DNA of 37,432 nt from an uncultured Candidatus Saccharibacteria bacterium (GCA_964567265.1 CAZMLK010000002.1:204813-242244); one strand, 5' to 3'. Counted from the first letter of the stretch, positions 12,847 to 37,432 are shown. Notes: generated by a model from the sequence alone, not told the origin. Made by a program: numbers and translations.

Positions 12847-12870
12847 CTTATTCTCCGTTGAGGGAATAAT

Positions 12871-12917: not shown

Positions 12918-12927
12918 ACGGCGAATT

Positions 12928-12936: not shown

Positions 12937-12943
12937 GGGTGAT

Positions 12944-20095: not shown

Positions 20096-20187
20096 GATCG
20101 TGAAGATTTCATTCTTCGCTATCAACACTTCAGCCGCTCGCTTCAATACTCCCCGAGTGTATACTAGGAGTGCATCAATCTATTTGC

Positions 20188-21410: not shown

Positions 21411-21413
21411 GCT

Positions 21414-21773
21414 ATGAACGATCTTTTCTCAAAGCACAAAAATCTCATCTATATCGGCGGCTTTTTGCTAGTCGTCATCGGCGGCTACTATTTCTTCGGG
21501 AGCAGTATCAAGCTCGGCAGCGGCGCCACGTCACCTGCGGCTGCGTCAGAAAGCGAACAGGAACTCCTGAACGAGCTCCTTAAATTGAAGTCGCTCCAGC
21601 TAGATGAGAGTATCTTCGCCGATCCGGCCTTCAAGTCTCTTGAGGATTTCAGCCAGCCAATCGATCCGGAACCAGTCGGTCGAAAGAATCCATTCATGCC
21701 CGCAGGAGGAGTCGCGACGCCGCCAGGAAGTACCGGAGTGAAACCCGCATCCGTGCAGGATTTCAAGAACTAG
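21414..21773 (+). CDS. small membrane-anchored pilus accessory protein (PilP-like?)
   Basis: 119 aa with an N-terminal TM (LIYIGGFLLVVIGGYYFF). The C-terminal GRKNPFMP resembles the R-x-PF motif of PilP-type proteins, but the evidence is weak. Confidence 0.5.
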   Translation: MNDLFSKHKNLIYIGGFLLVVIGGYYFFGSSIKLGSGATSPAAASESEQELLNELLKLKSLQLDESIFADPAFKSLEDFSQPIDPEPVGRKNPFMPAGGVATPPGSTGVKPASVQDFKN

Positions 21774-21841
21774 CCGTCCCTCGGCGTACCGTTTCCAGTT
21801 AAAATATTCGACGGCTCTCGAAGCGTGCCGCCCTACACACC

Positions 21842-23638
21842 ATGAACGTTTTGACACTACTCGTTGAGCGGGGCCTCATTCAGGAAAAGCAGATTCCTGA
21901 TATCGAGGCAGAAGCCGCAAAGGACGAAGTCTCGATAGAGGCCGTCCTTGCGAAGCGTGGCGTCCCGCTTGAGGAGGTGCTCAAGATCAAGGGGGAGCAT
22001 TTCAGTGTCCCTACGAAGATCATGGAGGGGAAGGATGTACCCTTCGAGGTCCTCCGGTATATCCCCGAAGAATCGGCGACCCACTACCGCTTCGTACCTC
22101 TCGGCATCGTTGACGGCGTGCTCGAGGTCGGCGTGACCGACCCCGACAACATCGAAGCGCTGGATGCGCTCAATTTCATTTCCCAAAAGGAAGATATCCC
22201 GTTCAAGGTCTATCTTATTTCTGAAAGCGACTTCGAGCGCATCCTGGGCGTATACAAAGGCCTGAAGGGAGAAGTTGGACGCGCTATTTCCGAGCTCGAG
22301 ACCGAGTTCGAGCCGGGGAAGAGCGAGGAAGAGGAAGAGCGGGAGAGCACGAAGCTCTCGGAAGATGAGATCAAGGAAGAGGCGCCGGTCACCAAGATCG
22401 TGGCTACCATCCTTCGTGACGCCGTTGAAGGTCGTGCATCCGACATCCACATCGAGCCGACCAACGAGAACGTGCGCGTGCGCTTCCGTCTCGACGGCGC
22501 GCTCCATACCTCGATCATGCTCCCGCTCAACGTCCATCGTGCCGTCGTCGCCCGCATCAAGATCCTCTCTTCGATGAAGCTCGACGAGAAGCGGAAGCCG
22601 CAGGACGGCCGTTTTTCCGCAACCATCAACACTCGAAAGGTCGACTTCCGCGTCTCGACGTTCCCCTCAAGTCACGGCGAGAAGGTCGTGATGCGTATTC
22701 TCGATCGCGAAAAAGGGACCATCACGATGGATTCCCTCGGCTTCAATGCGAAGCAGCAAGCGACGATGAAGCGCGTCGCGGACCTGCCGTACGGGCTCAT
22801 TCTCCTCACCGGCCCTACCGGTTCCGGAAAATCGACCACTCTGTACGCACTCCTCGGCGAGCTCGATCGTGAGAAGCATAACGTGATTTCCCTCGAGGAC
22901 CCTGTCGAATACGACATGGAGGGCGTGAGCCAGTCCCAGATCCGCCCTGAAATCGGCTACACCTTCGCGTCCGGCCTCCGTTCCATCCTCCGCCAGGACC
23001 CTGACATCATCATGGTGGGAGAAATCCGCGACAAGGAGACCGCACAGCTGGCGATCCAGGCATCGCTTACGGGTCACTTGGTGTTCTCGACTATCCATAC
23101 CAACACGGCGGTCGGCGTGATCCCGCGCCTCATCGACATGGGCGTCGATCCGTACCTGATCGCTCCGACCTTGGTCCTTGCCGTCGGCCAGCGCCTTGTG
23201 AGGCGCATCTGCCCGGGCTCGGGCCGGAAGATCCCGCTCGAAGGAAGCGTCAAGATGATGCTCGAGCGGCAGTTTGCCGATCTTCCAGAGCAATATAAGA
23301 AAGAAATCCCGTGGACGGATCATCTTCTCGGCATCCAGGCGACAGGGGATTGTCCCGCCGGCGTCCGTGGCCGTCTCGGCGTCTTCGAATTCTTGGAAAT
23401 GAATCCGACCTTGGAGCAGGCGATCCTCAAAGGCACCAATGAAGCGGACATTTGGAACATTGCCCGCGCAGGTGGCATGCTCACGATGCGAGAGGATGCT
23501 ATCATAAAGGCACTCGAAGGTAAGATTCCGTTCGAGGAGGTGAACGCGCTCGGAGGCGAGCTGCTGCTCGAGGCCGGGGACGAACTCCCAGCGCCCGCAG
23601 CGGCCGAAACTCCGGTCGAAGCAGATACGGAATCATAA
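21842..23638 (+). CDS. pilB: type IV pilus extension ATPase PilB (GspE family)
   Basis: 598 aa with a T2SSE_N-like N-domain, Walker A GPTGSGKSTT, Walker B region DPDIIMVGEIRD and His box TGHLVFSTIHTN. Confidence 0.95.
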   Translation: MNVLTLLVERGLIQEKQIPDIEAEAAKDEVSIEAVLAKRGVPLEEVLKIKGEHFSVPTKIMEGKDVPFEVLRYIPEESATHYRFVPLGIVDGVLEVGVTDPDNIEALDALNFISQKEDIPFKVYLISESDFERILGVYKGLKGEVGRAISELETEFEPGKSEEEEERESTKLSEDEIKEEAPVTKIVATILRDAVEGRASDIHIEPTNENVRVRFRLDGALHTSIMLPLNVHRAVVARIKILSSMKLDEKRKPQDGRFSATINTRKVDFRVSTFPSSHGEKVVMRILDREKGTITMDSLGFNAKQQATMKRVADLPYGLILLTGPTGSGKSTTLYALLGELDREKHNVISLEDPVEYDMEGVSQSQIRPEIGYTFASGLRSILRQDPDIIMVGEIRDKETAQLAIQASLTGHLVFSTIHTNTAVGVIPRLIDMGVDPYLIAPTLVLAVGQRLVRRICPGSGRKIPLEGSVKMMLERQFADLPEQYKKEIPWTDHLLGIQATGDCPAGVRGRLGVFEFLEMNPTLEQAILKGTNEADIWNIARAGGMLTMREDAIIKALEGKIPFEEVNALGGELLLEAGDELPAPAAAETPVEADTES

Positions 23639-23643
23639 CGAAT

Positions 23644-24057
23644 ATGCACGAGAAAGAAGAGAAAAAAATCCTGATCATCGACGACGATCAATTCCTCGTC
23701 GATATGTACGCGGTGAAGTTCAAAGAAGCAGGATACTCTGTCGACACCTCGCTCGAAGGGAAGGAGGCGCTCAAGAAGCTCCGTGAAAAATCGCTCTGCC
23801 CCGACATCCTGCTCATGGATGTGGTCATGCCCGAGGTGGACGGGTTCCAGATACTCGAGACCATCCGCAAGGAGAATCTCTGCGGCGATCCGATCCTGAT
23901 CGTGCTCTCGAACCAGGGGCAGGATACGGACATCCAGAAGGCGATGGAGCTCGGTGCCCACGGATACATCGTGAAGGCGAACACCATTCCCTCAGAAGTC
24001 CTCGCCAAGGTGACCGAGATTATCGAAAGCAAGGCGCTTAAAGCAACAACTGCATGA
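23644..24057 (+). CDS. single-domain response regulator (CheY/PilH-like) embedded between pilB and pilT
   Basis: 137 aa with IIDDD, phospho-acceptor context ILLMDVVMP, VLSN and YIVKA. Its stop overlaps the pilT ATG (ATGA). Confidence 0.9.
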   Translation: MHEKEEKKILIIDDDQFLVDMYAVKFKEAGYSVDTSLEGKEALKKLREKSLCPDILLMDVVMPEVDGFQILETIRKENLCGDPILIVLSNQGQDTDIQKAMELGAHGYIVKANTIPSEVLAKVTEIIESKALKATTA

Positions 24058-25136
24058 TTGTCGCCCACGAAAAAAAAGATTACAAGAAAGAGCTCGGGGA
24101 ACTGATTGAGACCGTGATGAATGAAGGGGGGTCCGACCTCCACTTTTCTGCGGGCTACCATCCGACCATCCGCGCGCTCGGCTCCCTGATCGCGCTCGCG
24201 AAGCGGGACAAGCTCACCGGCGCGGATACCGAGGGCTTCGCGCAGGTGCTCCTTTCTGACGAACAGCATGAGCGGTTCCTCAGGGAAAAGGAGATCGACT
24301 TTTCATTCAGCTTGGACGGCAAGGCGCGCTTCCGCGGCAACGCATCCTATCAGCGCGGCACCGTCGCGATCGCGCTCCGCTATATCCCGAATACGATTCG
24401 GACGATCGGCGAACTCCGCCTGCCGCCCATCCTCGAGGAATTCGCCGAGCGAAAGCAAGGGTTCTTCCTCGTCGTCGGCCCCGTGGGGCAGGGTAAATCG
24501 ACCACGCTCGCAGCGATGGTCGATTATATCAACACAGCCCGGACCGAGCACATCGTGACCATCGAGGACCCGATCGAGTATGTGTTCGATCCGAAGCAGT
24601 CCGTGATTGACCAGCGCGAAGTCCTTATCGATACCAATGATTTCCATACTGCGCTCAAGTCGGCGTTCCGCCAGGACGTGAACGTAATCATGGTCGGCGA
24701 GATGCGGAGTCCGGAGACCATCTCGACTGCTGTCACCGCGGCGGAAACCGGTCACCTCGTCCTTTCGACCCTCCACACCAACAACGCATCCCAGACCATC
24801 GACCGCATCATCGATAGCTTCTCCTCGACGCAGCAGGATCAGATCCGCATGCAGCTCGGCGCGAGCTTGGTCGGCATCTTCTCGCAGCGGCTCATCCCGG
24901 GGATCGCCGGAGGACTTGTGCCCGCATACGAGCTCCTCATCAATAACAAAGCCATCGCAAACCTGATCCGGGAGAAGCGCACGCATGAGATCAACACCGT
25001 GATCGAGACCGGCTCTCAGGAGGGCATGGTCAGTATGAACCGATCGCTCGCGGATCTCGTCCGCAAAGGGGAGATCACGATCGAGAACGCCTTCCGCTTC
25101 TCGCTTGACCCTACCGTCCTTGAACGTCTCGTATAA
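24054..25136 (+). CDS. pilT: type IV pilus retraction ATPase PilT
   Basis: 360 aa with Walker A GPVGQGKSTT, RQDVNVIMVGEMR, TGHLVLSTLHTNNA and the PilT-type AIANLIREKRTHE motif. Confidence 0.95.
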   Translation: MIVAHEKKDYKKELGELIETVMNEGGSDLHFSAGYHPTIRALGSLIALAKRDKLTGADTEGFAQVLLSDEQHERFLREKEIDFSFSLDGKARFRGNASYQRGTVAIALRYIPNTIRTIGELRLPPILEEFAERKQGFFLVVGPVGQGKSTTLAAMVDYINTARTEHIVTIEDPIEYVFDPKQSVIDQREVLIDTNDFHTALKSAFRQDVNVIMVGEMRSPETISTAVTAAETGHLVLSTLHTNNASQTIDRIIDSFSSTQQDQIRMQLGASLVGIFSQRLIPGIAGGLVPAYELLINNKAIANLIREKRTHEINTVIETGSQEGMVSMNRSLADLVRKGEITIENAFRFSLDPTVLERLV

Positions 25137-25141
25137 CCACT

Positions 25142-26350
25142 ATGCTTTTCCAATACACAGCATTCGATGCGGGCGGCGCCGAGAAAACCGGCACCGTTGA
25201 AGCAATTAATCAGGATGTCGCGATCAGCTCGCTGCAGCGGCGCGGCCTGGTCATTTCTTCGATCGCGGCTGTCGAGGAAAATAAGGGGCTTTTTGAGAAC
25301 ATCAAGCTCTTCAACCACGTTTCCAACAAGGAGATCGTCATCATCTCGCGCCAGATCGCGACACTCTTCGAAGCACAGGTTTCCGCGCTCCGCGTGTTCC
25401 GTCTGCTCGGCGCTGAATCAGAGAATCTCGCGCTCCGTGAGGTCTTGACCATCGTCGCCGACGATCTCCAGGGTGGCTCGACGATCTCAGGCGCGCTCTC
25501 GAAGCATCCGGACGTCTTCTCGGGCTTTTATACAAACATGGTCAAGGCGGGCGAAGAAGCCGGAAAACTAGACCAAACCTTCCTCTTCCTTGCGGACTAT
25601 CTCGATCGCACCTATGAAGTCACGACGAAGGCGCGGAACGCGCTCGTCTACCCGGCGTTCGTCATCTCCACCTTCCTCGTCGTCATGATCCTCATGATGA
25701 CTGTGGTGATCCCGCGTCTCGGCACCATCATCGAGGAATCGGGGCAGCAGGTACCAATCTACACCAAGGCAGTGCTTGGCATCAGCCATCTCTTCGTGGA
25801 TTACAGCGTATTCCTCTTCATTGGCCTCGCGGCGCTCGCGGTTTTCCTCTGGCGCTACATCCTTACCGACGCCGGCAAGAATGCGCTCGATACGCTCAAG
25901 CTCGAAGTCCCATACCTCGGCACGCTCTTCCGCAAGCTCTACCTCTCTCGCATCGCTGACAACCTCTCGACCATGCTCGGAAGCGGTATCCCGATGGTGC
26001 GCGCGCTCGAGATCACGTCCGAAGTGGTGGGGAACCGTCTCTACGAACAGGCGCTCGCGGATATCATGACTGGCGTCAAGAACGGTGTCTCGGTTTCGGA
26101 TGCATTCGCTGGGCACACTGACCAGATGCCAGGGCTCCTTGTACAAATGATCAAGGTCGGTGAGGAAACCGGAGAACTTGGGAATATCCTCAACATGCTC
26201 GCTAAATTCTATCGCCGCGAGGTCAATAATGCGGTGGATACGCTTATCGGCCTCATCGAGCCGGCCATGATCGTCGGCCTCGGCCTCGGTGTCGGCCTCC
26301 TCCTGGTCTCAGTCCTCGTCCCGATCTATCAGATCTCCTCGAGCGTCTAG
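25142..26350 (+). CDS. pilC: type IV pilus platform protein PilC (GspF family)
   Basis: 402 aa with a duplicated T2SSF domain and three hydrophobic TM segments. Canonical position after pilT. Confidence 0.94.
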   Translation: MLFQYTAFDAGGAEKTGTVEAINQDVAISSLQRRGLVISSIAAVEENKGLFENIKLFNHVSNKEIVIISRQIATLFEAQVSALRVFRLLGAESENLALREVLTIVADDLQGGSTISGALSKHPDVFSGFYTNMVKAGEEAGKLDQTFLFLADYLDRTYEVTTKARNALVYPAFVISTFLVVMILMMTVVIPRLGTIIEESGQQVPIYTKAVLGISHLFVDYSVFLFIGLAALAVFLWRYILTDAGKNALDTLKLEVPYLGTLFRKLYLSRIADNLSTMLGSGIPMVRALEITSEVVGNRLYEQALADIMTGVKNGVSVSDAFAGHTDQMPGLLVQMIKVGEETGELGNILNMLAKFYRREVNNAVDTLIGLIEPAMIVGLGLGVGLLLVSVLVPIYQISSSV

Positions 26351-26490
26351 GGGGCAGTGAGTTATACACATAAAAGAGGGAGGGGGCGAGCGTCCTGTCC
26401 TATAATTATTATCGTACCTCTTTGCAAATAGATTCGTGCGGAAGACGGTCGTGTTCAATAAGAAGTGTCATTAGTAATAGTCTGTTTTTT

Positions 26491-27034: not shown

Positions 27035-27189
27035 AAAAAAGACGGCAGCGCAGCGGTTTATCCACACATTGAAGGGAAGACTTTGCAGTTCTGTCCTATA
27101 ATTACCGCTGTACCTTCTTGCAAAGCTATTAACACGCAAAGACGGTCGCACTCTCTATAGGTAATTACTCATAGCCATAGTTTGTTTTT

Positions 27190-28899: not shown

Positions 28900-29721
28900 G
28901 TGGAAACTCTCATCGCTACGTACATATTCGTACTCGGTCTCCTGGTCGGGAGCTTCGTGAACGTGCTTGTCCTTCGGCATGAGACAGGGGAGGGGGTCGG
29001 TGGAAGATCCCATTGCGGCAAATGCCGCCGCCAGCTCTCTTGGTTCGAGAATGTTCCGCTCCTTTCGTTCCTCGTGCTTCGCGGCAAATGCCGTACCTGT
29101 AGAGAACGAATCTCGTTCCAGTACCCTCTTGTCGAACTCCTGACCGCATCACTCTACCTCCTCGTGTGGCAGGCAGCCTTTCCGCTCCCGCGAACCATTC
29201 TGATCCTCCTCGCGACCCTATTCCTGGTTGCCATTGTCGTCTACGACCTCAGGACCACCATCATTCCCGATGAATTTGTTATTCCGTGGAATCTGCTCGC
29301 GTTCCTGTCGGTTTTTATCGGGACAAGCGCCGTCACGATGCCCTCGATCGCAGCATTTCTGGCTGGACCGCTCCTCGCGCTGCCGTTCGCGCTCCTCTGG
29401 GTCATGTCGGGCGGTCGGTGGATCGGACTCGGCGATGCGAAGCTCGCGCTCGGCATGGGCTGGTTCCTCGGATTGATACCTGGTTTTTCTGCGGTGATAC
29501 TTTCATTCTGGATCGGCGCCGTAACCAGTCTCCTCCTCCTGGCCCTCAGCAAGGTTCTCCCCCATATCGTGAAGCTCCTCCCATTGCCCTCAAGTACTCG
29601 TCACCTTACAATGAAGAGCGAGGTGCCGTTCGCGCCATTCCTGGTCATTGGCTTCTATATCGGCCTCCTGAGCCACATCGATCTCTTCGTACTGCCGATT
29701 CGCGCGCTTGGCGGATTCTAA
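28900..29721 (+). CDS. pilD: prepilin peptidase (A24 family) PilD
   Basis: 273 aa with a GTG start. N-terminal LVGSFVNVLVLR, Cys pairs CGKC...CRTC, catalytic Asp contexts VVYDLRTTIIPDE and GLGDAKL, and a polytopic topology. Confidence 0.92.
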   Translation: METLIATYIFVLGLLVGSFVNVLVLRHETGEGVGGRSHCGKCRRQLSWFENVPLLSFLVLRGKCRTCRERISFQYPLVELLTASLYLLVWQAAFPLPRTILILLATLFLVAIVVYDLRTTIIPDEFVIPWNLLAFLSVFIGTSAVTMPSIAAFLAGPLLALPFALLWVMSGGRWIGLGDAKLALGMGWFLGLIPGFSAVILSFWIGAVTSLLLLALSKVLPHIVKLLPLPSSTRHLTMKSEVPFAPFLVIGFYIGLLSHIDLFVLPIRALGGF

Positions 29722-29734
29722 TTTGAAACAGCAT

Positions 29735-30199
29735 ATGCAACGGTTCCTGATGAAATTGAAATCCGACCCGGCACGCGGGTTCTCGCTCATCGAGCTCTTG
29801 GTCGTGATCACCATCATCGCGGTCCTGACGACGCTCACCATTTCAGGGCTCAACTCTGCACGCATCAAGGGCCGGGATGCGGATCGCGTTTCCGATATCA
29901 AGCAGATACAGCTTGCGCTCGAACTCTATTACGACGCAAACCACTTCTATCCGAACAGCACGACTGAGACGGCCGTGACGACCGCACTTGCAGGGTTGGT
30001 GAGCGGGGGATTCATGGCGGTGATCCCGGATGATCCGCTGACGACCCAGCACTATATGTACAAGAGCAGCTCCGCGAGCGGTTCCACCGCATACTGCGTA
30101 GGCGCGAATCTCGAGGGTGCATCCCAAGGAGCATCAACCTGCACTACGCCTACCCTCACGGCGACGTATGATTACAGCGCGGGTCCCCAGGGCCCATGA
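29735..30199 (+). CDS. type IV pilin-like protein, paralog of 28408..28878
   Basis: ...KSDPARG|[16 protein letters not shown] with Glu+5 and RDADRVSDIKQIQLALELYY. The start could be ATG 29735 or ATG 29750; the ORF track TTG 29708 overlaps pilD. Confidence 0.85.
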   Translation: MQRFLMKLKSDPARGFSLIELLVVITIIAVLTTLTISGLNSARIKGRDADRVSDIKQIQLALELYYDANHFYPNSTTETAVTTALAGLVSGGFMAVIPDDPLTTQHYMYKSSSASGSTAYCVGANLEGASQGASTCTTPTLTATYDYSAGPQGP

Positions 30200-30867
30200 T
30201 GGAAGGAGAACGCATGAGTACTTTTCAGAAAATAATCGCAGCGCTCCACGTCCCACGCACGGGCCGTGCTTCGTTTTTGCAGAATGCCGCTTCGCGCGGC
30301 TTCACGCTCATCGAGCTTCTGGTGGTCATATCGATAAGCATGCTCCTCCTCCTCTCGGTCCTCTTTCTCGATATCGGCCCGAAGGGGAAGCCGTCCGTCG
30401 ACACTGCGGCGCAGCAGCTCTCTGTCATCGTGCGGCAAGCGCTTGCGTACGGCCTTGCAATCGTCGGAACGAACAACAACTTCGATGTCGGCTATGGCGT
30501 ACGCGTGAATACGAATGCGGCGACGCAGGCGATCCTGTACGTCGATGTCAACAAGAATAACCTCTTCGATGCGGGGGACACTACCATGCAGACGCTGACT
30601 TTTCCTTCCGACGTAACCGTCCAGAAGTTCTGCGTCGACAAGGGGAGCACCCCTACGTGTTACAACGCAGGTGCATCCAGCAACGCGCTCGACATCAGTT
30701 TCGCGCGCTCATCGTTCATCGGCGTCATCTCGGTCACGCCGAATGGAGGTTCTGCGGACAAGACGTGGGCCACGACGACGATCTATCTCCAGAGCGCCTC
30801 GGATCCGGCAATCATCGAGCAGGTGAAGGTGAATCGAGCCGGACTTGTTGATATTATCGGCATATGA
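30196..30867 (+). CDS. minor pilin (GspH/FimT-like)
   Basis: ...NAASRG|[16 protein letters not shown] with Glu+5. ATG 30196 (ATGA coupling) would give a 35-aa leader. An in-frame TTG at 30277 would give a typical 8-aa leader, so the start is ambiguous. Confidence 0.8.
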   Translation: MMEGERMSTFQKIIAALHVPRTGRASFLQNAASRGFTLIELLVVISISMLLLLSVLFLDIGPKGKPSVDTAAQQLSVIVRQALAYGLAIVGTNNNFDVGYGVRVNTNAATQAILYVDVNKNNLFDAGDTTMQTLTFPSDVTVQKFCVDKGSTPTCYNAGASSNALDISFARSSFIGVISVTPNGGSADKTWATTTIYLQSASDPAIIEQVKVNRAGLVDIIGI

Positions 30868-31388
30868 ACCTGAACCGTATTTTCAAAAAGAACAAGGAGA
30901 CTGAGAAGGGATTCACCCTCGTTGAGATGATGGTCTCCGTAGCGCTCTTCGTCATCATCATGATGGTCTTGGTGGACTTGTTCATCTCGCTCCTCGTCGC
31001 GAACCGCAAGGCGCAGTCGCAGAAGTTTGTCTACGACAACGTGTACAGCTCGATTGAGATCATCACGAGGCATATCCGTTCGGGAACCGGATATAATTGC
31101 CCCGGGGGAGCGTGCTCGACATTCTCGTTCACGGACGCGGATGGAAATTCCGTGACCTATCGGGTCCAGAACGGTGTCATCCAGCGTTCAATGAACGGAG
31201 GTGCCTATGATGACATCACGGCGGGAAACATCACGATCGACAATCTCAAATTCTATACGTTCGGCGATAATGTGACCCAGCAGGAGCGCGTCCTCGTCAT
31301 CATCGCGGGGAAGGCGGGTACGGGGGCCACGCTCTCGACCTTCACCGTGCAGACGACCATCTCGCAGGCGCTCCTTACCGAATTTTAA
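30864..31388 (+). CDS. minor pilin (PilW/GspJ-like)
   Basis: MNLNRIFKKNKETEKG|FTLVEMMVSVALFVIIM with Glu+5. ATGA overlap with the previous gene. Confidence 0.8.
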   Translation: MNLNRIFKKNKETEKGFTLVEMMVSVALFVIIMMVLVDLFISLLVANRKAQSQKFVYDNVYSSIEIITRHIRSGTGYNCPGGACSTFSFTDADGNSVTYRVQNGVIQRSMNGGAYDDITAGNITIDNLKFYTFGDNVTQQERVLVIIAGKAGTGATLSTFTVQTTISQALLTEF

Positions 31389-31389
31389 T

Positions 31390-31950
31390 ATGCAGCATTC
31401 CACCAACAATCAGGCAGGCTTCACGCTCATCGAGACTCTGGTCGCGCTCACAATCATCACGATCGGCATCATCGGGCCCCTTACACTCCTCCAGCGGAGC
31501 TTGAATGCGACCGTATATGCCAAGGAGAAGGTGACGGCGATCTTCCTCGCGGAAGATGCGCTCGAATACCTGAAGAATGTTCGAGACAGCGATGCTTTGA
31601 GCGCCATGACGGACCAGAATACGGCAACCGACTACTTTTTCGGGGACATCATCCCGAAGTGTCTCGACAAGAGCTGCAAGATCGAGACGACGACTGATTA
31701 CCCGAGCGACCACGCGACCAATCCGAGCGTGACGGTCTGTTCCGGCACCTGCGCCGCCTTGAATTACAGCCCATCTCTGGACGTGTACAGCTATAAGACT
31801 GGCTCTGATTGGGCTGCGTCCGTCTACACGCGGACGATCATCATCACTAAATTCGCTTCAGGCGAATATAAGGCGCAGGTGAAGATGACGTGGAAAGGGC
31901 ATACGGTCGTCATCGAGCGCAACTTCCAGAACATCGTGCGCAATATCTAG
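31390..31950 (+). CDS. minor pilin (PilV/GspI-like)
   Basis: MQHSTNNQAG|FTLIETLVALTIITIGI with Glu+5. 186 aa. Confidence 0.8.
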   Translation: MQHSTNNQAGFTLIETLVALTIITIGIIGPLTLLQRSLNATVYAKEKVTAIFLAEDALEYLKNVRDSDALSAMTDQNTATDYFFGDIIPKCLDKSCKIETTTDYPSDHATNPSVTVCSGTCAALNYSPSLDVYSYKTGSDWAASVYTRTIIITKFASGEYKAQVKMTWKGHTVVIERNFQNIVRNI

Positions 31951-31970
31951 CAGCTACTGTATAACTCCGA

Positions 31971-31999
31971 GTGACAGGAAAAACGCCGCTCGATATACT
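31971..31999 (+). promoter_or_regulatory. promoter-like GTGACA-N17-TATACT upstream of the large adhesin gene
   Basis: GTGACA at 31971-31976 and TATACT at 31994-31999. It is part of a motif of about 24 nt, TACTGtATAACTCcGAGTGACAGG, that is repeated upstream of the second adhesin gene. Confidence 0.45.
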
Positions 32000-32088: not shown

Positions 32089-35000
32089 ATGAACACTAAC
32101 AAACTCAAATCCGCCCTCGCCCGACTCCCACGCGGGGAAGGATTCACCCTCCTCTACGCCATCATCATGGTGGCAGCAGTCCTCTTCATCACCACCTCAG
32201 CACTCTTCCTTCTCACGAGGCAGGTCCGTTTCGCCACCATCTCCAATGACTCCCAGGATGCCTACTACGCTGCAGAGTCTGCAGGCGAATGCATCCTCTC
32301 CTACGCCCAGGCCGGCGTGTTCGACAAGGGCATCGTCCAGGACATCGTGTGTGATGGGGTGACGTATCGTACTGACGGGTCTCCGAAGCAGACCTTCAAG
32401 ATCAAAATCACGAACCCGACGACAGGTCTCGAGACGGTCGCGATCGTCACTGTTGATACGGTAAAGAAGACTATCGATTCCCTCGGATATAACAGCGATG
32501 ACGAGACGCTCCCCACCCGCCTCCAGCGCGCCATCACCTTCCGCTACAAGTCGTATTGTCCGATCGGAGGGGACGTGATGATCCTCGCGGACACTTCAGG
32601 CAGTATTGATGCTTCAGAATTGGTCATATACAAGAAATCGATCAAATACCTTATAGACAGGATTTATGCGGCCGAACCGACCACCAACGTTGGTCTGATC
32701 GAGTTTAATACAAATGCGCAGGTCAGAGACAACATGAAAGCGTTGAATGCAGGAACATATCTCGCAGATCTCAAGGCGGATGTGGATTTGCTGGGTGAGT
32801 ACTCGGGGCGCACTCACACTTCGATCGCTCTTCGTAGTGCATGGCTTCAATTCCAGGACTTGAAGGACTCGAGCTCCAATTCCTATGATCCGACAGGCAT
32901 CTTTAACAGTGATTCACCTCCGGCCGAAATGAGTGGCGGCATGATCGAGGGGGCTGATATTGTCCCCATCAACCCTCCCGTGAATCGCGATGACGAAGAG
33001 TATTCGAATCATGTGATCCTTTTCACGGATGGCGGACCGAACGACTGGATTTCCACAAGCTCAGTCCGTATCAGTGGCGTGTTAAAACCGAAAGGGTTTT
33101 ATATTGACTCCCCGTGCAAATGGAATGCCGATGGCTCGGTGTACGCCGACAGTAATGACACGGCTCCAGGGTGCTATAAGGGTGCCTTCACCATTCCCGC
33201 GCAGTATAGTTTCATGAAAGAGGCGACGAACCTTAAGACGCTTGCAACGCTCTATACGGTTGCGATCGGTCTCGGCACCGACCCTGATGGAGCAGGATCA
33301 GATGAGTGCCTTCCGGGCGTCACCTGCCTCCAGCAGATGCAAGAGGCGGCAACCACGCCAGATCTTTCGTGGGTGGCAAATGATTTCAACGAAGCCCGGC
33401 TGAACCAGATCGCCGACGAAATTCTTGCCTGCAATATTCCGATCAAGAATGGAAACACCGCGCCGATCGTCCTCGGCGGCTATCCGACAGGCTCACTCCC
33501 GCAGGGGACGACCCAGACGACTATGTCGGTGACCACCAATGAGGATGCCCAGTGCAAATGGAGCACGGGTGACGTGTCCTATGGCGCGATGGCGAATACG
33601 TTTACGACTACCGGTACCAAGTCCCACTCGACGACGTTGACCGGCCTCACCAACAATACTTCCTATACGCGTTACATCCGTTGCCAGGATTCAGGAGGGC
33701 TCGAAAGCACGCCAGGCTACATCATCAGTTTTTCTGTCGCAGCAGGCTCGAGCGATACGACAGTTCCGTCGGTCCCCGCAGGACTCACTGCAAATCCCAT
33801 CTCATCAACCCAAATCAACTTGTCATGGACAGCATCCACCGATAATGTTGCAGTGACAGGTTACGAGCTCCAGCGGTGCGCGGGGGCGTCGTGTACAAAT
33901 TTCACCAGCTTGTCGACGCCGACAGGGACTACCTACAACAATACGGGCCTTACTGCCGGAACAACCTATCGCTACAAAGTTCGCGCGCGCGACGCCGCTT
34001 CGAACTGGTCGGCATATTCTTCAATAGTGGATGGTGCAACCTCCGCGGGTGCCGTTTCCATTCCGACAGGCTATCTTGCTTATTTCCCCTTCAATGAGGG
34101 AAGTGGCGCAACGGCTGCGAATGCCGCGGGATCAGGGAATGCATCCCTCCTCGGCACCTATTCGTGGGTCACACGCGGATCCGGGAACGCTATCGATTTC
34201 AATGGGGCATCAGGCCGCGCATCAGTCGGGGACGTCACCTTCCTCGACGGACTCAGTAAAGCCACGTTTGCTACCTGGATGAACTGGGACAGTAAATCGA
34301 CCAATTCAAGTCAGTCGATCATGCGGAAGGACGGCACCATCACGCTCATGCAATCGAACAACAGCACCTCTCTTTGGCGTTCAACCATATGGGCACCGAC
34401 GAGCGTCGCGCATGCCGTCCCGCTTTCGAACATCCCGACCGGCACCTGGACGCATGTCGCGGTGGTCTGGGACAACAGTGTAAATTCCGGAAAACCGAAG
34501 CTGTATGTGAACGGTGCATTCGTGATGGATTACCCTACAGGGAGTACGGGCGTTACTGCAAATTCATCGAACGCGCTCATGTTCGGCGCAACCGAGTCAA
34601 ACACGGAATGGTACGACGGGAAGCTCGACGACGTGATTATCTACGGACGGGCGCTTACTGCTACCGAAGTGAATAATCTCTATAACGCAACGCAGACCTC
34701 CGCTCCCTCCGCTGATACGACCGCTCCAACCGCTCCAACCGGCCTCAGACTTCTAGACGATTCCGCTACGACCGTCGCGGTCGATTGGAACGCGTCGACC
34801 GATGCAGTCGGCGTCACTGGATATGAAGTGCAGCGTTGTACGGGTGCTTCCTGTACGTCATGGGTAACGGTTGAAAGTCCGACAGCGACCGATCATGAGA
34901 GTACGGGACTTTCCGCGGGAACCGTCTACCGGTTCCGCGTGCGCGCCCGCGATGCCGCAGGGAACTGGTCCGCGTACTCCTCGATTGTCGATACACAGAC

Positions 35001-35682
35001 AATCCCGACGAGCGGACTGATCGGCCAGTGGCTCATGGATTCGCAGACGGGCGGCGTCGTGAGCAGCAATCAGGGAAGCGGCTCCTACGGGGGGACGCTT
35101 ACTGGCGGCGCGGCCATCAATACGTCCGCCCCGGCGCATGGTGCGGGCGCGGTGCTTCTCGATGGCGTGAATGATATCGTCAACTTCGGAGACATCACGG
35201 AAATCAACGGAGCTCCTGATCTCTCAGTCTCTCTCTGGTTCAAGGATGCGAATGCGGGAAGTACTGCCGTGCGCGGGCTGTTTACGAAGTTCCAGGATCA
35301 GAACACCGATTTCCTGGCAGCGGTCGATAATGCAAACTTCTATATCGATCTCGGAAATGGTTCTGCGGACACCTATGCAAAATGGAATTTTGGAGCGGGG
35401 AATCTTGCGGGCAACACCTGGCATCATGCAGTGATCGTCTATGACGGTACCCTGGCTGCGGCAAGCCGTCTGAAGCTCTATGTCGACAATGTCCAGCGGA
35501 CGCTGACGTTCTTTGGTACCATTCCCGCGACGATCAACAGTGGACTTTCCGGCAATCCGTTCCGTCTCGGCACCCTTGATGGCTCATCAAAGTACTGGAA
35601 TGGCAGAATCGACTCTTTGCGCATCTACAACCGCGATCTCACTGCGAATGAAGTCGACGCGCTCTACAATCAGAAGCAGTAG
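32089..35682 (+). CDS. modular pilus-tip adhesin: PilX/GspK-like pilin anchor + vWA + Ig-like + FN3-LamG + FN3-LamG
   Basis: 1197 aa. Prepilin-like LPRGEG|FTLLYAIIMVAAVLFI has Tyr rather than Glu at +5. The vWA MIDAS elements are DTSGS, GRTHTS and LFTDGGPND. Two FN3 modules are present (GLTANPISSTQINLSWTAS...YRYKVRARDAASNWS and the related GLRLLD...YRFRVRARDAAGNWS). Each FN3 is followed by a LamG/ConA-like module ending ...GKLDDVIIYGRALTATEVNNLYN or ...GRIDSLRIYNRDLTANEVDALYN. Confidence 0.88.
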   Translation: MNTNKLKSALARLPRGEGFTLLYAIIMVAAVLFITTSALFLLTRQVRFATISNDSQDAYYAAESAGECILSYAQAGVFDKGIVQDIVCDGVTYRTDGSPKQTFKIKITNPTTGLETVAIVTVDTVKKTIDSLGYNSDDETLPTRLQRAITFRYKSYCPIGGDVMILADTSGSIDASELVIYKKSIKYLIDRIYAAEPTTNVGLIEFNTNAQVRDNMKALNAGTYLADLKADVDLLGEYSGRTHTSIALRSAWLQFQDLKDSSSNSYDPTGIFNSDSPPAEMSGGMIEGADIVPINPPVNRDDEEYSNHVILFTDGGPNDWISTSSVRISGVLKPKGFYIDSPCKWNADGSVYADSNDTAPGCYKGAFTIPAQYSFMKEATNLKTLATLYTVAIGLGTDPDGAGSDECLPGVTCLQQMQEAATTPDLSWVANDFNEARLNQIADEILACNIPIKNGNTAPIVLGGYPTGSLPQGTTQTTMSVTTNEDAQCKWSTGDVSYGAMANTFTTTGTKSHSTTLTGLTNNTSYTRYIRCQDSGGLESTPGYIISFSVAAGSSDTTVPSVPAGLTANPISSTQINLSWTASTDNVAVTGYELQRCAGASCTNFTSLSTPTGTTYNNTGLTAGTTYRYKVRARDAASNWSAYSSIVDGATSAGAVSIPTGYLAYFPFNEGSGATAANAAGSGNASLLGTYSWVTRGSGNAIDFNGASGRASVGDVTFLDGLSKATFATWMNWDSKSTNSSQSIMRKDGTITLMQSNNSTSLWRSTIWAPTSVAHAVPLSNIPTGTWTHVAVVWDNSVNSGKPKLYVNGAFVMDYPTGSTGVTANSSNALMFGATESNTEWYDGKLDDVIIYGRALTATEVNNLYNATQTSAPSADTTAPTAPTGLRLLDDSATTVAVDWNASTDAVGVTGYEVQRCTGASCTSWVTVESPTATDHESTGLSAGTVYRFRVRARDAAGNWSAYSSIVDTQTIPTSGLIGQWLMDSQTGGVVSSNQGSGSYGGTLTGGAAINTSAPAHGAGAVLLDGVNDIVNFGDITEINGAPDLSVSLWFKDANAGSTAVRGLFTKFQDQNTDFLAAVDNANFYIDLGNGSADTYAKWNFGAGNLAGNTWHHAVIVYDGTLAAASRLKLYVDNVQRTLTFFGTIPATINSGLSGNPFRLGTLDGSSKYWNGRIDSLRIYNRDLTANEVDALYNQKQ
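32098..32580 (+). repeat. 483-nt direct repeat, copy 1 (adhesin N-terminal module)
   Basis: 100% identical to 35909-36391 (offset 3811 nt). It covers codons 4-164 of both adhesin genes. Confidence 0.93.
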
Positions 35683-35711: not shown

Positions 35712-35746
35712 AAACACAAACCGCGGCTGCGCCGCTGTTTGTGTTT
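35712..35746 (+). terminator. terminator hairpin after the large adhesin gene
   Basis: AAACACAAACCGCGGC-TGC-GCCGCTGTTTGTGTTT forms a stem with one mismatch. Confidence 0.6.
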
Positions 35747-35771
35747 CTTGATGGATACTGGATAACTCTGA

Positions 35772-35801
35772 GTGACAGGGACAGGGAAGCGCCCGTATAC
35801 T
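35772..35801 (+). promoter_or_regulatory. promoter-like GTGACA-N18-TATACT upstream of the second adhesin gene
   Basis: GTGACA at 35772-35777 and TATACT at 35796-35801. It lies within TACTGgATAACTCtGAGTGACAGG, the same motif as at 31955-31978. Confidence 0.45.
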
Positions 35802-35899: not shown

Positions 35900-37246
35900 A
35901 TGAATAACAACAAACTCAAATCCGCCCTCGCCCGACTCCCACGCGGGGAAGGATTCACCCTCCTCTACGCCATCATCATGGTGGCAGCAGTCCTCTTCAT
36001 CACCACCTCAGCACTCTTCCTTCTCACGAGGCAGGTCCGTTTCGCCACCATCTCCAATGACTCCCAGGATGCCTACTACGCTGCAGAGTCTGCAGGCGAA
36101 TGCATCCTCTCCTACGCCCAGGCCGGCGTGTTCGACAAGGGCATCGTCCAGGACATCGTGTGTGATGGGGTGACGTATCGTACTGACGGGTCTCCGAAGC
36201 AGACCTTCAAGATCAAAATCACGAACCCGACGACAGGTCTCGAGACGGTCGCGATCGTCACTGTTGATACGGTAAAGAAGACTATCGATTCCCTCGGATA
36301 TAACAGCGATGACGAGACGCTCCCCACCCGCCTCCAGCGCGCCATCACCTTCCGCTACAAGTCGTATTGTCCGATCGGAGGGGACGTGATGCTTGTCGTC
36401 GACAACTCAAGCAGCATCGATGACAGCGAGATGGCCGTATACAAGGCGAACCTGAAATACCTCGTGGATCGCATCTACGAAGCGGACAAGACGACCCGTG
36501 TCGGACTCATCACGTATGGAAGCGCGGCGAAGACTGTCTCTGACCTGGTCGCGCTCGATGACGGCAACCATTATGGATGGCTGAAGACCAAGATCGATGC
36601 CATGTCGAACATGGGCCGCACGCATACCTCGATCGCGCTCACTGACGCCTGGCTTCAATTCCAGAATCTCGAGGAGATTGATCAAGGCGGGGAGCCTCCA
36701 TACGACATCGTCAATTCGGATGGAGTAAAGCTTACCTCGGGAATGGTGACGGATACGCGCATCATCACCCCTGCCGTGAACCGTGATGATGAGGAGTTCT
36801 CGAATCACGTCATCCTCTTCACTGACGGCAGCCCGAATGACTGGATCGCGACATCATCCATCAAAGTCAACGGCATACTGAAACCGAAAGGCTTCTGGAT
36901 AGACACCCCGTGCAAATGGAAAGCAGACGGATCCATGTATGCAGACAATAACACTGTCCCCCCAGGCTGCGTGAAGCAGGCCGGAGTGTACACGATTCCT
37001 GCGCCGTACAGCTTCCTCACGACCGCAAGCAAGGTAAAATCACTCGCCACGCTCTACACCATCGCCATCGGCCTAGATGCGGGGGATGAAGAAGAGGAGT
37101 CGCTTTGCCTCCCGAACAAGACCTGCAAGCAGATCATGAGCGAGGCAGCGACCGACCCGAAGCTCGCCTGGATCGCAAACTCGTTCGATAAGGCACGTCT
37201 CGATGCCATCACGGACGAGATCCTTGACTGCGATCGACCTGAATAA
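35900..37246 (+). CDS. modular pilus-tip protein, short paralog: PilX/GspK-like anchor + divergent vWA domain
   Basis: 448 aa. Residues 4-164 are identical to the 1197-aa protein. The following vWA domain is roughly half identical (DNSSS MIDAS, GRTHTS, LFTDGSPND). The protein ends where the long paralog continues into its Ig/FN3/LamG modules. Confidence 0.88.
   Translation: MNNNKLKSALARLPRGEGFTLLYAIIMVAAVLFITTSALFLLTRQVRFATISNDSQDAYYAAESAGECILSYAQAGVFDKGIVQDIVCDGVTYRTDGSPKQTFKIKITNPTTGLETVAIVTVDTVKKTIDSLGYNSDDETLPTRLQRAITFRYKSYCPIGGDVMLVVDNSSSIDDSEMAVYKANLKYLVDRIYEADKTTRVGLITYGSAAKTVSDLVALDDGNHYGWLKTKIDAMSNMGRTHTSIALTDAWLQFQNLEEIDQGGEPPYDIVNSDGVKLTSGMVTDTRIITPAVNRDDEEFSNHVILFTDGSPNDWIATSSIKVNGILKPKGFWIDTPCKWKADGSMYADNNTVPPGCVKQAGVYTIPAPYSFLTTASKVKSLATLYTIAIGLDAGDEEEESLCLPNKTCKQIMSEAATDPKLAWIANSFDKARLDAITDEILDCDRPE
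35909..36391 (+). repeat. 483-nt direct repeat, copy 2
   Basis: 100% identical to 32098-32580. Confidence 0.93.
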
Positions 37247-37373: not shown

Positions 37374-37432
37374 ATGACCGCGAAAACAGAGGCTAAAAAA
37401 CGTATCGATAAGCTCAGGGCGCTTATCGATTA
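37374..37432 (+). CDS. partial CDS (5' end only); N-terminus reminiscent of NAD-dependent DNA ligase
   Basis: MTAKTEAKKRIDKLRALID... runs off the window. The product call rests on only 19 residues. Confidence 0.35.
   Translation, partial: MTAKTEAKKRIDKLRALID

What the first reader, a model, noticed from the sequence alone, without database searches (positions are those of the whole stretch)
32089..35682. A 1197-aa modular pilin stacks vWA, Ig-like and two FN3-LamG units on a GspK/PilX-type anchor lacking Glu+5
The N-terminus has a prepilin-like cleavage context (RGEG|FTLLYAIIM) but Tyr instead of the conserved Glu at +5. That feature is known for tip-capping pseudopilins of the GspK/PilX type. 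Downstream lie a complete MIDAS vWA domain, an Ig/FN3-like module, and two FN3 plus LamG/ConA-lectin units. Modular pilins that carry either a vWA or a lectin module are established, for example Streptococcus sanguinis PilB and PilC. Here both adhesive principles, and a duplicated lectin unit, are fused in one polypeptide that follows a GspH/J/I-like minor-pilin set. In a locus without a secretin, this protein is a strong candidate for the host or partner-cell attachment determinant.
Basis: partly seen in the sequence, partly recalled or inferred. Interest (0 to 1): 0.7.

Follow-up and report, generated by a model that had tools for sequence, protein, structure and literature searches.

The report
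Pilus-tip adhesin of an ultrasmall bacterium
This gene from an ultrasmall, probably host-dependent (Patescibacteria) bacterium most likely encodes the cap subunit of a type IV pilus, with a protein-binding module and two sugar-binding modules fused to it; this is a rare new combination of known parts, not a new kind of system.

Summary
The 1197-aa ORF (32089-35682) is real and its domain content is confirmed. Pfam finds VWA, two fn3 and two Laminin_G_3 domains above threshold. All five MIDAS residues are present (D168, S170, S172, T242, D314).

The N-terminal 160 aa belong to a large Patescibacteria family. Most members are stand-alone 140-190-aa proteins, and some are annotated PilX. The family has an invariant Gly-1, mostly Phe+1, and Tyr/Phe/Leu/Ile instead of Glu at +5.

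AlphaFold (50-sequence alignment, pLDDT 92) gives a pilin "lollipop": a 57-residue helix plus a β-sheet. Family members sit last in minor-pilin gene sets of secretin-less T4P loci.

No GspK homology is detectable beyond the first 22 residues.

The concept is already known from modular pilins (S. sanguinis PilB/PilC) and from the lectin- or propeller-bearing PilX1/PilX2 of Saccharibacteria. The vWA + 2×(FN3-LamG) combination is rare: I found one other representative.

Its vWA is only 50-66% identical. Each gene has its own similar promoter-like element. This points to gene conversion that keeps one plug for two alternative heads.

The parts
31955..31999 (+). Promoter-like element of the target gene. 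It is a 24-nt block, TACTGTATAACTCCGAGTGACAGG, that contains GTGACA, followed by 17 nt and then TATACT.
   Evidence: The consensus scan scores 10 of 12. The 24-nt block occurs only twice in the window, both times upstream of the two paralogs, against 0 expected by chance. The two upstream regions align.
32089..35682 (+). Target CDS, 1197 aa: a modular PilX-type minor pilin.
32089..32142 (+). Leader peptide, aa 1-18, ending in Gly18. Cleavage before Phe19 is predicted.
   Evidence: Gly18 is invariant in alignments A2 and A3 and present in 38 of 40 sequences of A5. Phe+1 is present in 45 of 53. Position +5 is Y/F/I/L/M in 50 of 53 and Glu in 1 of 53.
32143..32568 (+). Pilin (anchor) module, aa 19-160. 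It has an alpha1 helix at aa 18-74, six beta-strands, invariant C68 and C88, G133 and R147, and a last strand at aa 146-152.
   Evidence: AlphaFold2 with a 50-sequence alignment gives pLDDT 92 and pTM 0.77. PilX_N is the only Pfam family matched.
32098..32580 (+). A 483-nt tract that is 100% identical to 35909-36391 in the paralog (codons 4-164). I infer it is a gene-conversion tract.
   Evidence: there are no mismatches across the tract, and identity falls abruptly to about 55% beyond it. Upstream sequence is unrelated except for the promoter block.
32572..33438 (+). vWA module, aa 162-450, with MIDAS residues D168, S170, S172, T242 and D314. It contains an insertion at about aa 255-305 and is bracketed by C157 and C448.
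33451..33753 (+). Probable beta-sandwich spacer (Ig/FN3-like), aa 455-555.
   Evidence: Support is weak: fn3 E = 0.03. The region is 49.5% identical to the same region of the ortholog P0002. An NCBIfam CbhB linker-region match spans it.
33772..34020 (+). FN3 domain 1, aa 562-644.
   Evidence: Pfam fn3, 46 bits. FN3 domains in the PDB match this C-terminal region.
34204..34674 (+). LamG/ConA-like domain 1, aa 706-862.
   Evidence: Pfam Laminin_G_3, 84 bits. It is only 26.5% identical to the ortholog.
34732..34980 (+). FN3 domain 2, aa 882-964.
   Evidence: Pfam fn3, 45 bits. Matches titin and chitinase A1 FN3 domains in the PDB, E down to 3e-15.
35164..35655 (+). LamG/ConA-like domain 2, aa 1026-1189.
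   Evidence: Pfam Laminin_G_3, 70 bits.
35723..35745 (+). Terminator-like GC hairpin with a T-run, between the target and the paralog.
35756..35801 (+). Promoter-like element of the paralog: the same 24-nt block, then GTGACA, 18 nt, TATACT.
35900..37246 (+). Paralog, 448 aa: a near-identical anchor (aa 4-164) joined to a divergent vWA with an intact MIDAS, and no FN3 or LamG modules.
30196..30867 (+). Minor pilin with Glu+5 (GFTLIELLV), weakly GspH-like.
   Evidence: N_methyl 29 bits. GspH E = 2e-5, below the cut-off.
30864..31388 (+). Minor pilin with Glu+5 (GFTLVEMMV), weakly ComGE/GspJ-like.
31390..31950 (+). Minor pilin with Glu+5 (GFTLIETLV), PilV/GspI-like.
   Evidence: PilV 46.6 bits against a cut-off of 52.2, and GspI E = 2e-7.
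28900..29721 (+). Prepilin peptidase PilD, the presumed processing enzyme.
   Evidence: A24_N_bact E = 5e-29 and Peptidase_A24.
18929..26350 (+). T4aP-type machinery genes: PilM, PilN, PilO, PilB, a response regulator, PilT and PilC.

Best explanation
The gene encodes the apical, PilX/PilK-class minor pilin of a retractile, secretin-less type IV pilus in a Patescibacteria (Paceibacteria-like) bacterium. Adhesin modules are fused to the C-terminal side of its pilin domain.

Proposed mechanism (inferred unless marked as shown):
1. The pre-protein inserts into the membrane through its class-III-like signal.
2. PilD (28900-29721) cleaves after Gly18.
3. The mature Phe-Thr-Leu-Leu-Tyr N-terminus lacks Glu+5. 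It therefore cannot form the salt bridge that every lower subunit makes, so it must be the topmost subunit.
4. Its small pilin domain docks with the three Glu+5 minor pilins encoded just upstream (30196-31950). That domain is a 57-residue helix plus a beta-sheet clamped by C68-C88 and ending in the conserved R147-containing strand. Together the four proteins form the initiation complex.
5. PilB polymerises major pilins underneath, which carries the complex to the pilus tip.
6. At the tip, the MIDAS vWA module binds a protein ligand in a metal-dependent way. The two LamG lectin-like modules, held out by Ig/FN3 spacers, bind glycans on a partner or host cell or surface.
7. PilT-driven retraction then pulls the cell onto its target.

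The neighbouring 448-aa paralog carries the same anchor, kept identical by gene conversion, with a different vWA head and its own similar promoter. It probably competes for the same tip socket and gives pili with alternative heads.
For: Shown:
- The domains and MIDAS residues are present.
- The anchor belongs to a family found in 89 of the proteins retrieved. A search with an anchor-only profile found 127 more clusters, almost all 140-200 aa, named PilX or from Parcubacteria-type MAGs.
- Gly-1 is invariant, Phe+1 predominates, a hydrophobic residue sits at +5, and the 'SQxAYYAAESGxEC' motif lies exactly 40 residues after Gly-1 in 51 of 53 members.
- PilX_N is the only Pfam family matched, by 22 of 50 members.
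- The AlphaFold2 model is a pilin lollipop, pLDDT 92.
- The family gene follows the Glu+5 minor pilins in loci L081 and L087, which are T4P loci or minor-pilin operons. In L084 it follows two N_methyl genes and one gene without an N_methyl hit. In L082 the position differs: one N_methyl gene and one gene without a hit precede the family gene, and a Glu+5 pilin follows it.
- PilD, PilB, PilT, PilC and PilMNO are in the window, and no secretin was found.
- The organism is a Patescibacterium.
- GAST content (Gly+Ala+Ser+Thr) is 41% for the target against 26-29% for PilB and PilT.
- The 483-nt identical tract contrasts with a vWA divergence equal to that of the inter-species ortholog.
- A second lineage has the same layout of three minor pilins followed by two tandem anchor-vWA paralogs, with the anchor far better conserved than the vWA.

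From the literature:
- PilK homologs invariably lack Glu+5 and are apical (PMC13533445).
- The vWA and ConA-like modules of S. sanguinis PilB and PilC bind proteins and glycans (PMC8179133, PMC9934059).
- TM7x PilX2 is needed for full host binding (PMC11623550).
Against: - Foldseek found no solved pilin similar to the anchor model; the best E-value was 0.2.
- A profile search of PDB sequences found nothing.
- hhalign to GspK is non-significant beyond 22 residues.
- PilX_N is below Pfam's threshold for the target itself.
- There is no experimental evidence here for cleavage, incorporation into the pilus, or ligand binding.
- I could not model the complex with the minor pilins.
- In PilY1 of P. 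aeruginosa the vWA domain is linked to mechanosensing, so the vWA need not act only as an adhesin. This point comes from my own knowledge.
- The adhesin modules follow the last beta-strand of the pilin domain. Under the beta-strand-addition model that strand is buried against PilJ, so the chain's exit path is untested.
Confidence: 0.7

Rival explanations
1. The protein is a membrane-tethered surface adhesin that is never built into a pilus. The N-terminal hydrophobic helix stays in the membrane as an uncleaved signal anchor. The protein would act at the cell surface, or at the pilus base in a PilY1-like priming or sensing role.
For: - The target lacks Glu+5 and does not match N_methyl.
- SignalP did not call PilD signals in the analogous TM7x PilX1 and PilX2 (PMC11623550).
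- No solved pilin resembles the model by Foldseek.
Against: - Gly-1 is invariant and Phe+1 is conserved across hundreds of diverged relatives, which points to selection for prepilin-peptidase recognition.
- The predicted fold is a pilin lollipop.
- The gene is consistently placed with the minor-pilin genes.
- PilK and GspK homologs lack Glu+5 yet are processed and sit at the tip (PMC13533445).
Confidence: 0.12
2. It is the cap of a DNA-uptake (competence) pilus or a pseudopilus. On this view the vWA and LamG modules serve pilus assembly, stability or cell-wall passage, not attachment to a partner cell.
For: - A ComFC-like gene lies next to pilM, and a ComEC gene lies near the related locus L087.
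- Patescibacterial T4P have been linked to competence (discussed in PMC11623550).
- The minor pilins give ComGE, ComGF and GspG-J-like matches.
Against: - PilT and the PilMNO set indicate a retractile T4aP-like machine.
- MIDAS vWA and LamG modules are ligand-binding modules in the characterised modular pilins (PMC8179133, PMC9934059).
- In TM7x, the T4P-2 pilin mutants kept wild-type competence but lost host binding (PMC11623550).
- The two functions are not mutually exclusive.
Confidence: 0.1
3. The paralog pair is simply a recent partial tandem duplication with no functional meaning. One copy, probably the short one, would be decaying, and the identical anchor would reflect recency, not gene conversion or selection.
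For: - The paralog is absent from the syntenic locus of the closest relative, where ligA directly follows the 1202-aa gene.
- The window's paralog lies between the target and a probable ligA start.
Against: - The vWA parts of the two copies are 50-66% identical, as diverged as the ortholog in another species, while 483 nt of the anchor have zero differences. A single recent duplication cannot produce both.
- The paralog's ORF, MIDAS residues and cysteines are intact, and it has its own promoter-like element and terminator.
- A second lineage shows the same tandem layout with a conserved anchor and a divergent vWA.
Confidence: 0.08

Closest known systems
PilX1 and PilX2 of Nanosynbacter lyticus TM7x (Saccharibacteria), PMC11623550
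   Same: - Patescibacterial T4P minor pilins and the largest in their loci.
- A lollipop pilin domain plus a C-terminal accessory domain (L-type-lectin-like jelly roll, or a beta-propeller).
- A non-canonical signal peptide.
- Proposed tip adhesins; deleting pilX2 halves host binding.
   Different: - The heads differ: here a MIDAS vWA plus two FN3-LamG units.
- The phylum-level lineage differs (Paceibacteria-like).
- No gene-converted tandem paralog is reported there.
Streptococcus sanguinis modular pilins PilB (pilin + vWA) and PilC (pilin + ConA-like lectin), PMC8179133 and PMC9934059
   Same: - A functional module is grafted through a short linker onto a small pilin module.
- The vWA has a MIDAS and the lectin module is of the ConA/LamG superfamily.
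- The system is monoderm-type and lacks a secretin.
   Different: - PilB and PilC have canonical IPR012902 class III signals. The target's anchor is N_methyl-negative and lacks Glu+5, so the 2021 InterPro census could not have found it.
- In that census vWA always occurs alone (52 + 7 proteins), and no vWA + PF13385 architecture is listed. Here both occur in one chain, with the lectin unit duplicated.
PilX/PilK minor pilins with the separate PilY1/PilC adhesin of diderm T4aP (P. aeruginosa, Neisseria, Myxococcus), PMC13533445 and PMC7541494
   Same: - An apical pilin without Glu+5 follows the H, I and J-like minor pilins.
- The adhesin displayed at the tip often carries a vWA domain; IPR002035-IPR008707 is the commonest PilY1 architecture.
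   Different: - Here the vWA is covalently fused to the PilX-like pilin instead of being on a separate beta-propeller protein that docks by C-terminal beta-strand addition.
- No PilY1 beta-propeller is present.
T2SS GspK (E. coli, PDB 3CI0 as cited in PMC13533445)
   Same: - No Glu+5 (E. coli K-12 GspK reads RG|VALLI).
- Last of the minor-pseudopilin genes, and forms the tip cap.
- The final beta-strand is supplied in cis.
   Different: - No detectable homology beyond the first 22 residues (hhalign probability 3.5%).
- No alpha-domain insertion appears in the model.
- The extra domains are appended C-terminally, not inserted.
CpaL of the Caulobacter Tad pilus (described in PMC13533445)
   Same: A minor-pilin-like N-terminal domain and a large adhesin or sensing region in a single polypeptide at the pilus tip.
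   Different: - In CpaL the large region is inserted before a C-terminal beta-strand that folds back onto the pilin domain.
- In this family the stand-alone members end right after the conserved 'RVERGxxVxY' strand, and the target's modules come after that strand. This is an inference.

Membership tests
Type IV pilin-like protein (class III signal, pilin fold) | A short hydrophilic leader ending in Gly, followed by about 20-25 hydrophobic residues. | tested here: met
   The leader is MNTNKLKSALARLPRGEG, followed by the hydrophobic stretch F19-T43 and then R44. Gly-1 is invariant in the 50- and 34-sequence alignments.
Type IV pilin-like protein (class III signal, pilin fold) | A long N-terminal alpha-helix packed on an antiparallel beta-sheet. 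| tested here: met
   The AlphaFold2 model has pLDDT 92, a helix at aa 18-74 and six strands. However, Foldseek found no similar solved pilin.
Type IV pilin-like protein (class III signal, pilin fold) | Match to the N_methyl motif (PF07963 / IPR012902 / TIGR02532), which includes Glu+5. | tested here: not met
   Neither the target nor the paralog matches N_methyl, whereas all eight neighbouring pilins tested do. Position +5 is Tyr.
Type IV pilin-like protein (class III signal, pilin fold) | Cleavage and N-methylation by the prepilin peptidase. | not testable with these tools
   A PilD gene is present at 28900-29721. Processing itself needs an experiment.
PilX/PilK/GspK class of apical minor pilins | Absence of Glu at +5. 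| tested here: met
   The target has Tyr23. In the family, +5 is Y 19, F 15, I 8, L 6, M 2, and E only 1 of 53. PMC13533445 states that PilK homologs invariably lack Glu+5.
PilX/PilK/GspK class of apical minor pilins | Encoded with, and typically after, the GspH, GspI and GspJ-like minor pilins. | tested here: met
   This holds in the window and in L081 and L087. In L084 the preceding genes are two N_methyl genes and one gene without an N_methyl hit. In L082 the order differs slightly, with a Glu+5 pilin following the family gene.
PilX/PilK/GspK class of apical minor pilins | Match to the Pfam PilX_N profile (PF14341). | tested here: inconclusive
   The target scores 17.4-20.4 bits, below the gathering threshold of 25.5. 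Twenty-two of 50 family members match at E < 0.01, the best at 5e-7. Sources name some members PilX.
PilX/PilK/GspK class of apical minor pilins | Apical position in a complex with the I- and J-type minor pilins. | not testable with these tools
   No multimer prediction was available.
GspK proper (T2SS) | Sequence or profile homology to GspK, and an alpha-domain inserted in the pilin beta-sheet. | tested here: not met
   hhalign against E. coli GspK aligns 22 residues at 3.5% probability. No GspK NCBIfam match was found. The model has no alpha-domain.
vWA domain with MIDAS | A Pfam VWA match above threshold, plus the DxSxS, Thr and Asp metal-site residues. | tested here: met
   VWA scores 38.5 bits against GA 23.8, covering only the N-terminal half of the profile. 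D168, S170 and S172 align to the complement C2 MIDAS motif. T242 and D314 are conserved in 35 of 40 relatives. Metal binding was not tested.
LamG / ConA-like lectin superfamily (Laminin_G_3) | A profile match above threshold, occurring twice. | tested here: met
   The two matches score 84 and 70 bits against GA 27.6. Carbohydrate binding was not tested. No PDB sequence matched these modules at E < 0.01.
Modular pilin in the sense of Raynaud et al. 2021 | An N-terminal pilin module joined by a short linker to one or more domains that are not specific to T4P. | tested here: met
   The pilin module spans aa 1-153, the linker is KSYCPIGG, and vWA, FN3 and LamG modules follow. The protein fails that paper's operational criterion of IPR012902 positivity (PMC8179133).

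The most novel reading that the evidence does not exclude
The locus may be a 'one plug, several heads' system. Gene conversion would keep the PilX-type anchor nucleotide-identical between two or more independently transcribed adhesin genes, so that divergent heads stay compatible with the single set of minor pilins. Here the heads are vWA only versus vWA + 2×(FN3-LamG). An ultrasmall episymbiont could then display alternative pilus tips, and vary or switch partner specificity, without duplicating its pilus machinery. The recurrence of tandem anchor-vWA paralogs with a conserved anchor in another lineage (L087) would make this a general Patescibacterial strategy, one not covered by current modular-pilin censuses, which rely on the Glu+5 motif.
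Probability: 0.3. Interest if true: 0.65.

Novelty: new variant of a known kind. Interest (0 to 1): 0.45.

Why it matters
Patescibacteria make up a large share of bacterial diversity, and the cultivated ones live attached to host microbes. How they recognise a host is largely unknown, and T4P tip proteins are the leading candidates.

- This protein gives a concrete, domain-resolved candidate adhesin for the poorly studied Paceibacteria branch.
- The work defines a widespread Glu+5-less PilX-like anchor family that motif-based pilin searches miss.
- It shows that vWA, which in diderms sits on a separate PilY1 protein, can be fused directly to the cap pilin.
- It suggests through the gene-converted paralog how tip specificity could diversify while assembly compatibility is preserved.

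None of this overturns current models. It extends them to a new lineage and a new architecture.

Tried and rejected
1. AlphaFold2 of aa 1-460 with only the two window sequences failed (pLDDT 36). I replaced it with an anchor-only model built on a 50-sequence alignment. The vWA and later modules therefore have no 3D model.
2. Foldseek of the anchor model against the PDB gave no meaningful hit (best E = 0.2). The long exposed helix probably dominates the comparison, and I could not truncate the model.
3. A profile search of PDB sequences with the anchor family found only a designed coiled coil and the geopilin N-terminus.
4. hhalign against E. coli GspK and GspJ aligned only the leader and the N-terminal helix. 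I therefore rejected GspK membership.
5. The word-indexed protein search with aa 1-460 found only the window's own paralog. With the 34-sequence profile it found only 13 proteins.
6. A search for close relatives in GTDB species genomes found none. Two scans of JGI metagenome contigs also found none.
7. Looking up the paralog's contig to read beyond the window end returned no record.
8. I considered a pseudogene or a mis-called start. Both are rejected: the ORF is intact and begins at the first start codon after a stop.
9. I considered further silent anchor or vWA cassettes in the window. tblastn found only the two copies.

Full report
**Observation.**
The ORF 32089-35682 (+) is intact and encodes 1197 aa, starting at the first possible start codon.
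- Pfam recovers VWA (aa 162-249, 38.5 bits), two fn3 domains (aa 562-644 and ~882-964) and two Laminin_G_3 domains (aa 706-862 and ~1026-1189). All are above their curated thresholds.
- PilX_N matches aa 18-65 at only 17-20 bits (threshold 25.5), but it is the only Pfam family that matches the N-terminus. N_methyl does not match, although it matches all eight neighbouring pilin genes tested.
- The N-terminus reads ...PRGEG|FTLLYAIIMVAAVLFITTSALFLLT, with Tyr at +5.
- The DxSxS motif aligns with the MIDAS motif of complement C2. All five MIDAS positions (D168, S170, S172, T242, D314) are conserved in 33-36 of 40 relatives.
- The 'Ig-like' module at aa ~455-555 is only weakly supported (fn3 E = 0.03).
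- The two FN3-LamG units are genuine internal repeats: FN3 59% identical, LamG 29%.
- FN3 domains of titin and chitinase A1 in the PDB confirm the FN3 assignment. The LamG modules have no close solved relative by sequence.

**Context and organism.**
- The window carries PilM, PilN, PilO, PilB, a response regulator, PilT and PilC. These are followed by three tandem major-pilin paralogs, another pilin, PilD, a GspG-like pilin and three Glu+5 minor pilins. The minor pilins give sub-threshold GspH, ComGE/GspJ and PilV/GspI matches. The target comes next.
- No secretin domain was found in any ORF scanned.
- The FtsH of the window is at most 74% identical to proteins in MAGs labelled Minisyncoccia, Taylorbacteria, Nomurabacteria, Kaiserbacteria and Paceibacteria. 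The organism is therefore a Patescibacterium (CPR) of the Parcubacteria/Paceibacteria type, in which a T4P without a secretin is expected.

**What the anchor is.**
- An exhaustive HMMER search of 1.84 billion representatives with the anchor + vWA profile gave 475 hits. Eighty-nine of the proteins retrieved carry the anchor domain.
- A word-indexed search with an anchor-only profile found 127 further clusters. Almost all are stand-alone proteins of 140-200 aa. The few that are named come from Lloydbacteria, Zambryskibacteria, Paceibacterota, Minisyncoccia and 'Parcubacteria group' MAGs. Some are called 'Tfp pilus assembly protein PilX' or 'PilX N-terminal domain-containing protein'.
- The family has an invariant Gly at -1 and Phe at +1 in 45 of 53 members. 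Position +5 is Y/F/I/L/M in 50 of 53 and Glu in only one.
- The motif 'SQxAYYAAESGxEC' lies exactly 40 residues after Gly-1 in 51 of 53 members. C68, C88, G133 and R147 are invariant.
- Twenty-two of 50 members match PilX_N, and no other Pfam family is matched.
- AlphaFold2 of target aa 1-165 with the 50-sequence alignment gave pLDDT 92 and pTM 0.77. The model has a helix at aa 18-74 and six beta-strands, the classical pilin lollipop.
- Genomic context agrees. The 1202-aa ortholog P0002 lies in a fully syntenic T4P locus, after three minor pilins. The stand-alone member P0067 is the last gene of a four-gene minor-pilin set, and P0018 lies within the minor-pilin genes of a T4P locus. P0069 and P0153 follow three minor pilins.
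- The literature states that PilK/PilX/GspK homologs invariably lack Glu+5 and are the most apical subunit (PMC13533445).
I conclude that the anchor is the Patescibacterial PilX/PilK-class cap pilin.

I do not file it as GspK:
- hhalign to E. coli GspK aligns only 22 N-terminal residues at 3.5% probability.
- The model shows no alpha-domain.
- Foldseek and PDB profile searches found no solved relative.

**Architecture in the family.**
- Among 40 long family members, 31 carry VWA, five Laminin_G_3 and three fn3. This sample is biased toward vWA because the query profile included it.
- P0045 (797 aa) has the anchor followed by LamG-FN3-FN3-LamG without vWA.
- Only the target and P0002 combine vWA with two FN3-LamG units. 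P0002 is 48% identical overall, from a relative whose PilT is 83% identical.
- No closer relatives exist in the GTDB species representatives or in JGI metagenome contigs.
- In the 2021 InterPro census of modular pilins, PF13385 is the commonest module (229 proteins). vWA occurs only alone (52 + 7), and no vWA + PF13385 architecture is listed. That census required IPR012902, which this anchor does not match.
The specific combination is therefore rare and uncatalogued, but it is assembled from well-known modular-pilin parts.

- The gene at 35900-37246 encodes a 448-aa protein with the same anchor and a vWA with an intact MIDAS, and nothing else.
- Codons 4-164 of the two genes are identical at all 483 nucleotides (32098-32580 = 35909-36391). 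Identity then drops abruptly to about 55%.
- The vWA parts are 50-66% identical in protein. The target is equally far from the ortholog in another species (49-63%). An old duplication with a perfectly identical anchor implies recent gene conversion, or a recombinational replacement, of the anchor module. The tract's 3' boundary lies at codon 164, just inside the vWA domain, so it covers the anchor and the linker.
- The syntenic relative has no paralog; ligA follows directly.
- Each gene is preceded by the same 24-nt block. It contains GTGACA followed at 17-18 nt by TATACT. It is found only at these two places in the window, against zero expected. A terminator-like hairpin separates the two genes.
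- An unrelated lineage (L087) also has three minor pilins followed by two tandem anchor-vWA genes. There the anchor helix is 98% identical in DNA while the vWA is about 30% identical in protein.

**Mechanism (inferred).**
1. PilD cleaves after Gly18.
2. The mature pilin, lacking Glu+5, caps an initiation complex formed with the three upstream minor pilins.
3. Major-pilin polymerisation by PilB carries the complex to the tip.
4. The vWA MIDAS binds a protein ligand, and the two LamG modules bind glycans. Ig/FN3 spacers hold the LamG modules out.
5. PilT retraction pulls the cell onto its partner.
Seven cysteine pairs are consistent with an extracellular location, including 157/448, which brackets the vWA. 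So is a Gly+Ala+Ser+Thr content of 41%, against 26-29% for PilB and PilT.
Stand-alone family members end immediately after the conserved 'RVERGxxVxY' strand. In the beta-strand-addition model (PMC13533445) that strand would be the cis C-terminal strand. In the target the adhesin modules are appended after it, unlike CpaL (modules inserted before it) or PilY1 (strand supplied in trans).
The paralog would compete for the same socket and give alternative tips.

**Rivals.**
- An uncleaved membrane-tethered adhesin.
- A competence or pseudopilus cap whose modules serve assembly.
- A meaningless recent duplication.
Each is disfavoured by the conserved Gly-1/Phe+1, the synteny, the pilin fold, the intact paralog and the mosaic identity pattern. 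None is excluded without experiments.

**Comparison and novelty.**
The closest functional precedents are:
- TM7x PilX1 and PilX2, which have lectin-like or propeller heads and non-canonical signals, and where pilX2 is needed for full host binding (PMC11623550).
- S. sanguinis PilB and PilC (PMC8179133, PMC9934059).
- The PilX-PilY1 pair of diderms, whose vWA is on a separate protein.
This is a new variant of a known kind. It is a rare composite head on a Glu+5-less PilX anchor, in a branch of Patescibacteria where nothing is characterised. The added observation is concerted evolution of the anchor between two adhesin genes.
Interest is moderate (0.45). A specialist would find it useful and mildly surprising, but not paradigm-changing.

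Noticed in passing
window 26422-26982, 27190-27678, 27911-28408 (and 26392-26428, 27088-27124): Three tandem major-pilin paralogs are 68-89% identical in DNA over their first 300 nt and diverge in the C-terminal part. At least two are preceded by a repeated 37-nt element containing TATAAT. This may represent a set of alternative major pilins.
   Followed up: no
window 34039-34698 (target aa 651-870): The first LamG unit is only 26.5% identical to the ortholog P0002, whereas all other modules are 44-57% identical. This suggests fast evolution or replacement of this lectin module.
   Followed up: partly
L087 4940-7297: Another Patescibacterial contig has two tandem anchor + vWA genes (P0069, P0153) after three minor pilins. 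The anchor helix is 98% identical in DNA and the vWA about 30% identical in protein.
   Followed up: partly
proteins P0004 and P0008: These vWA-containing proteins of 502 and 575 aa have canonical Glu+5 pilin N-termini (GFTLVE, GFTLIE). vWA is therefore grafted on both Glu+5 and Glu+5-less anchors among the hits.
   Followed up: no
window 15410-15985 (-): An orphan 191-aa pilin with an N_methyl motif lies on the opposite strand, away from the main locus.
   Followed up: no
window 18216-18875 (-): A ComFC-like phosphoribosyltransferase-domain protein lies immediately upstream of pilM, divergently oriented. This hints at a link to DNA uptake.
   Followed up: no
window 7524-9491 (+): A 655-aa protein with a lamin-tail (LTD) domain, possibly another surface protein.
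   Followed up: no
window 12815-13645 (+): A 276-aa ORF gives a weak alternative-oxidase (AOX) family match, E = 8e-8. I believe this is unusual for a Patescibacterium, which typically lacks a respiratory chain.
   Followed up: no
window 37380-37432 (+): The start of a gene whose N-terminus resembles the LigA that directly follows the ortholog in L081. This places the 448-aa paralog as a lineage-specific insertion between the adhesin gene and ligA.
   Followed up: partly
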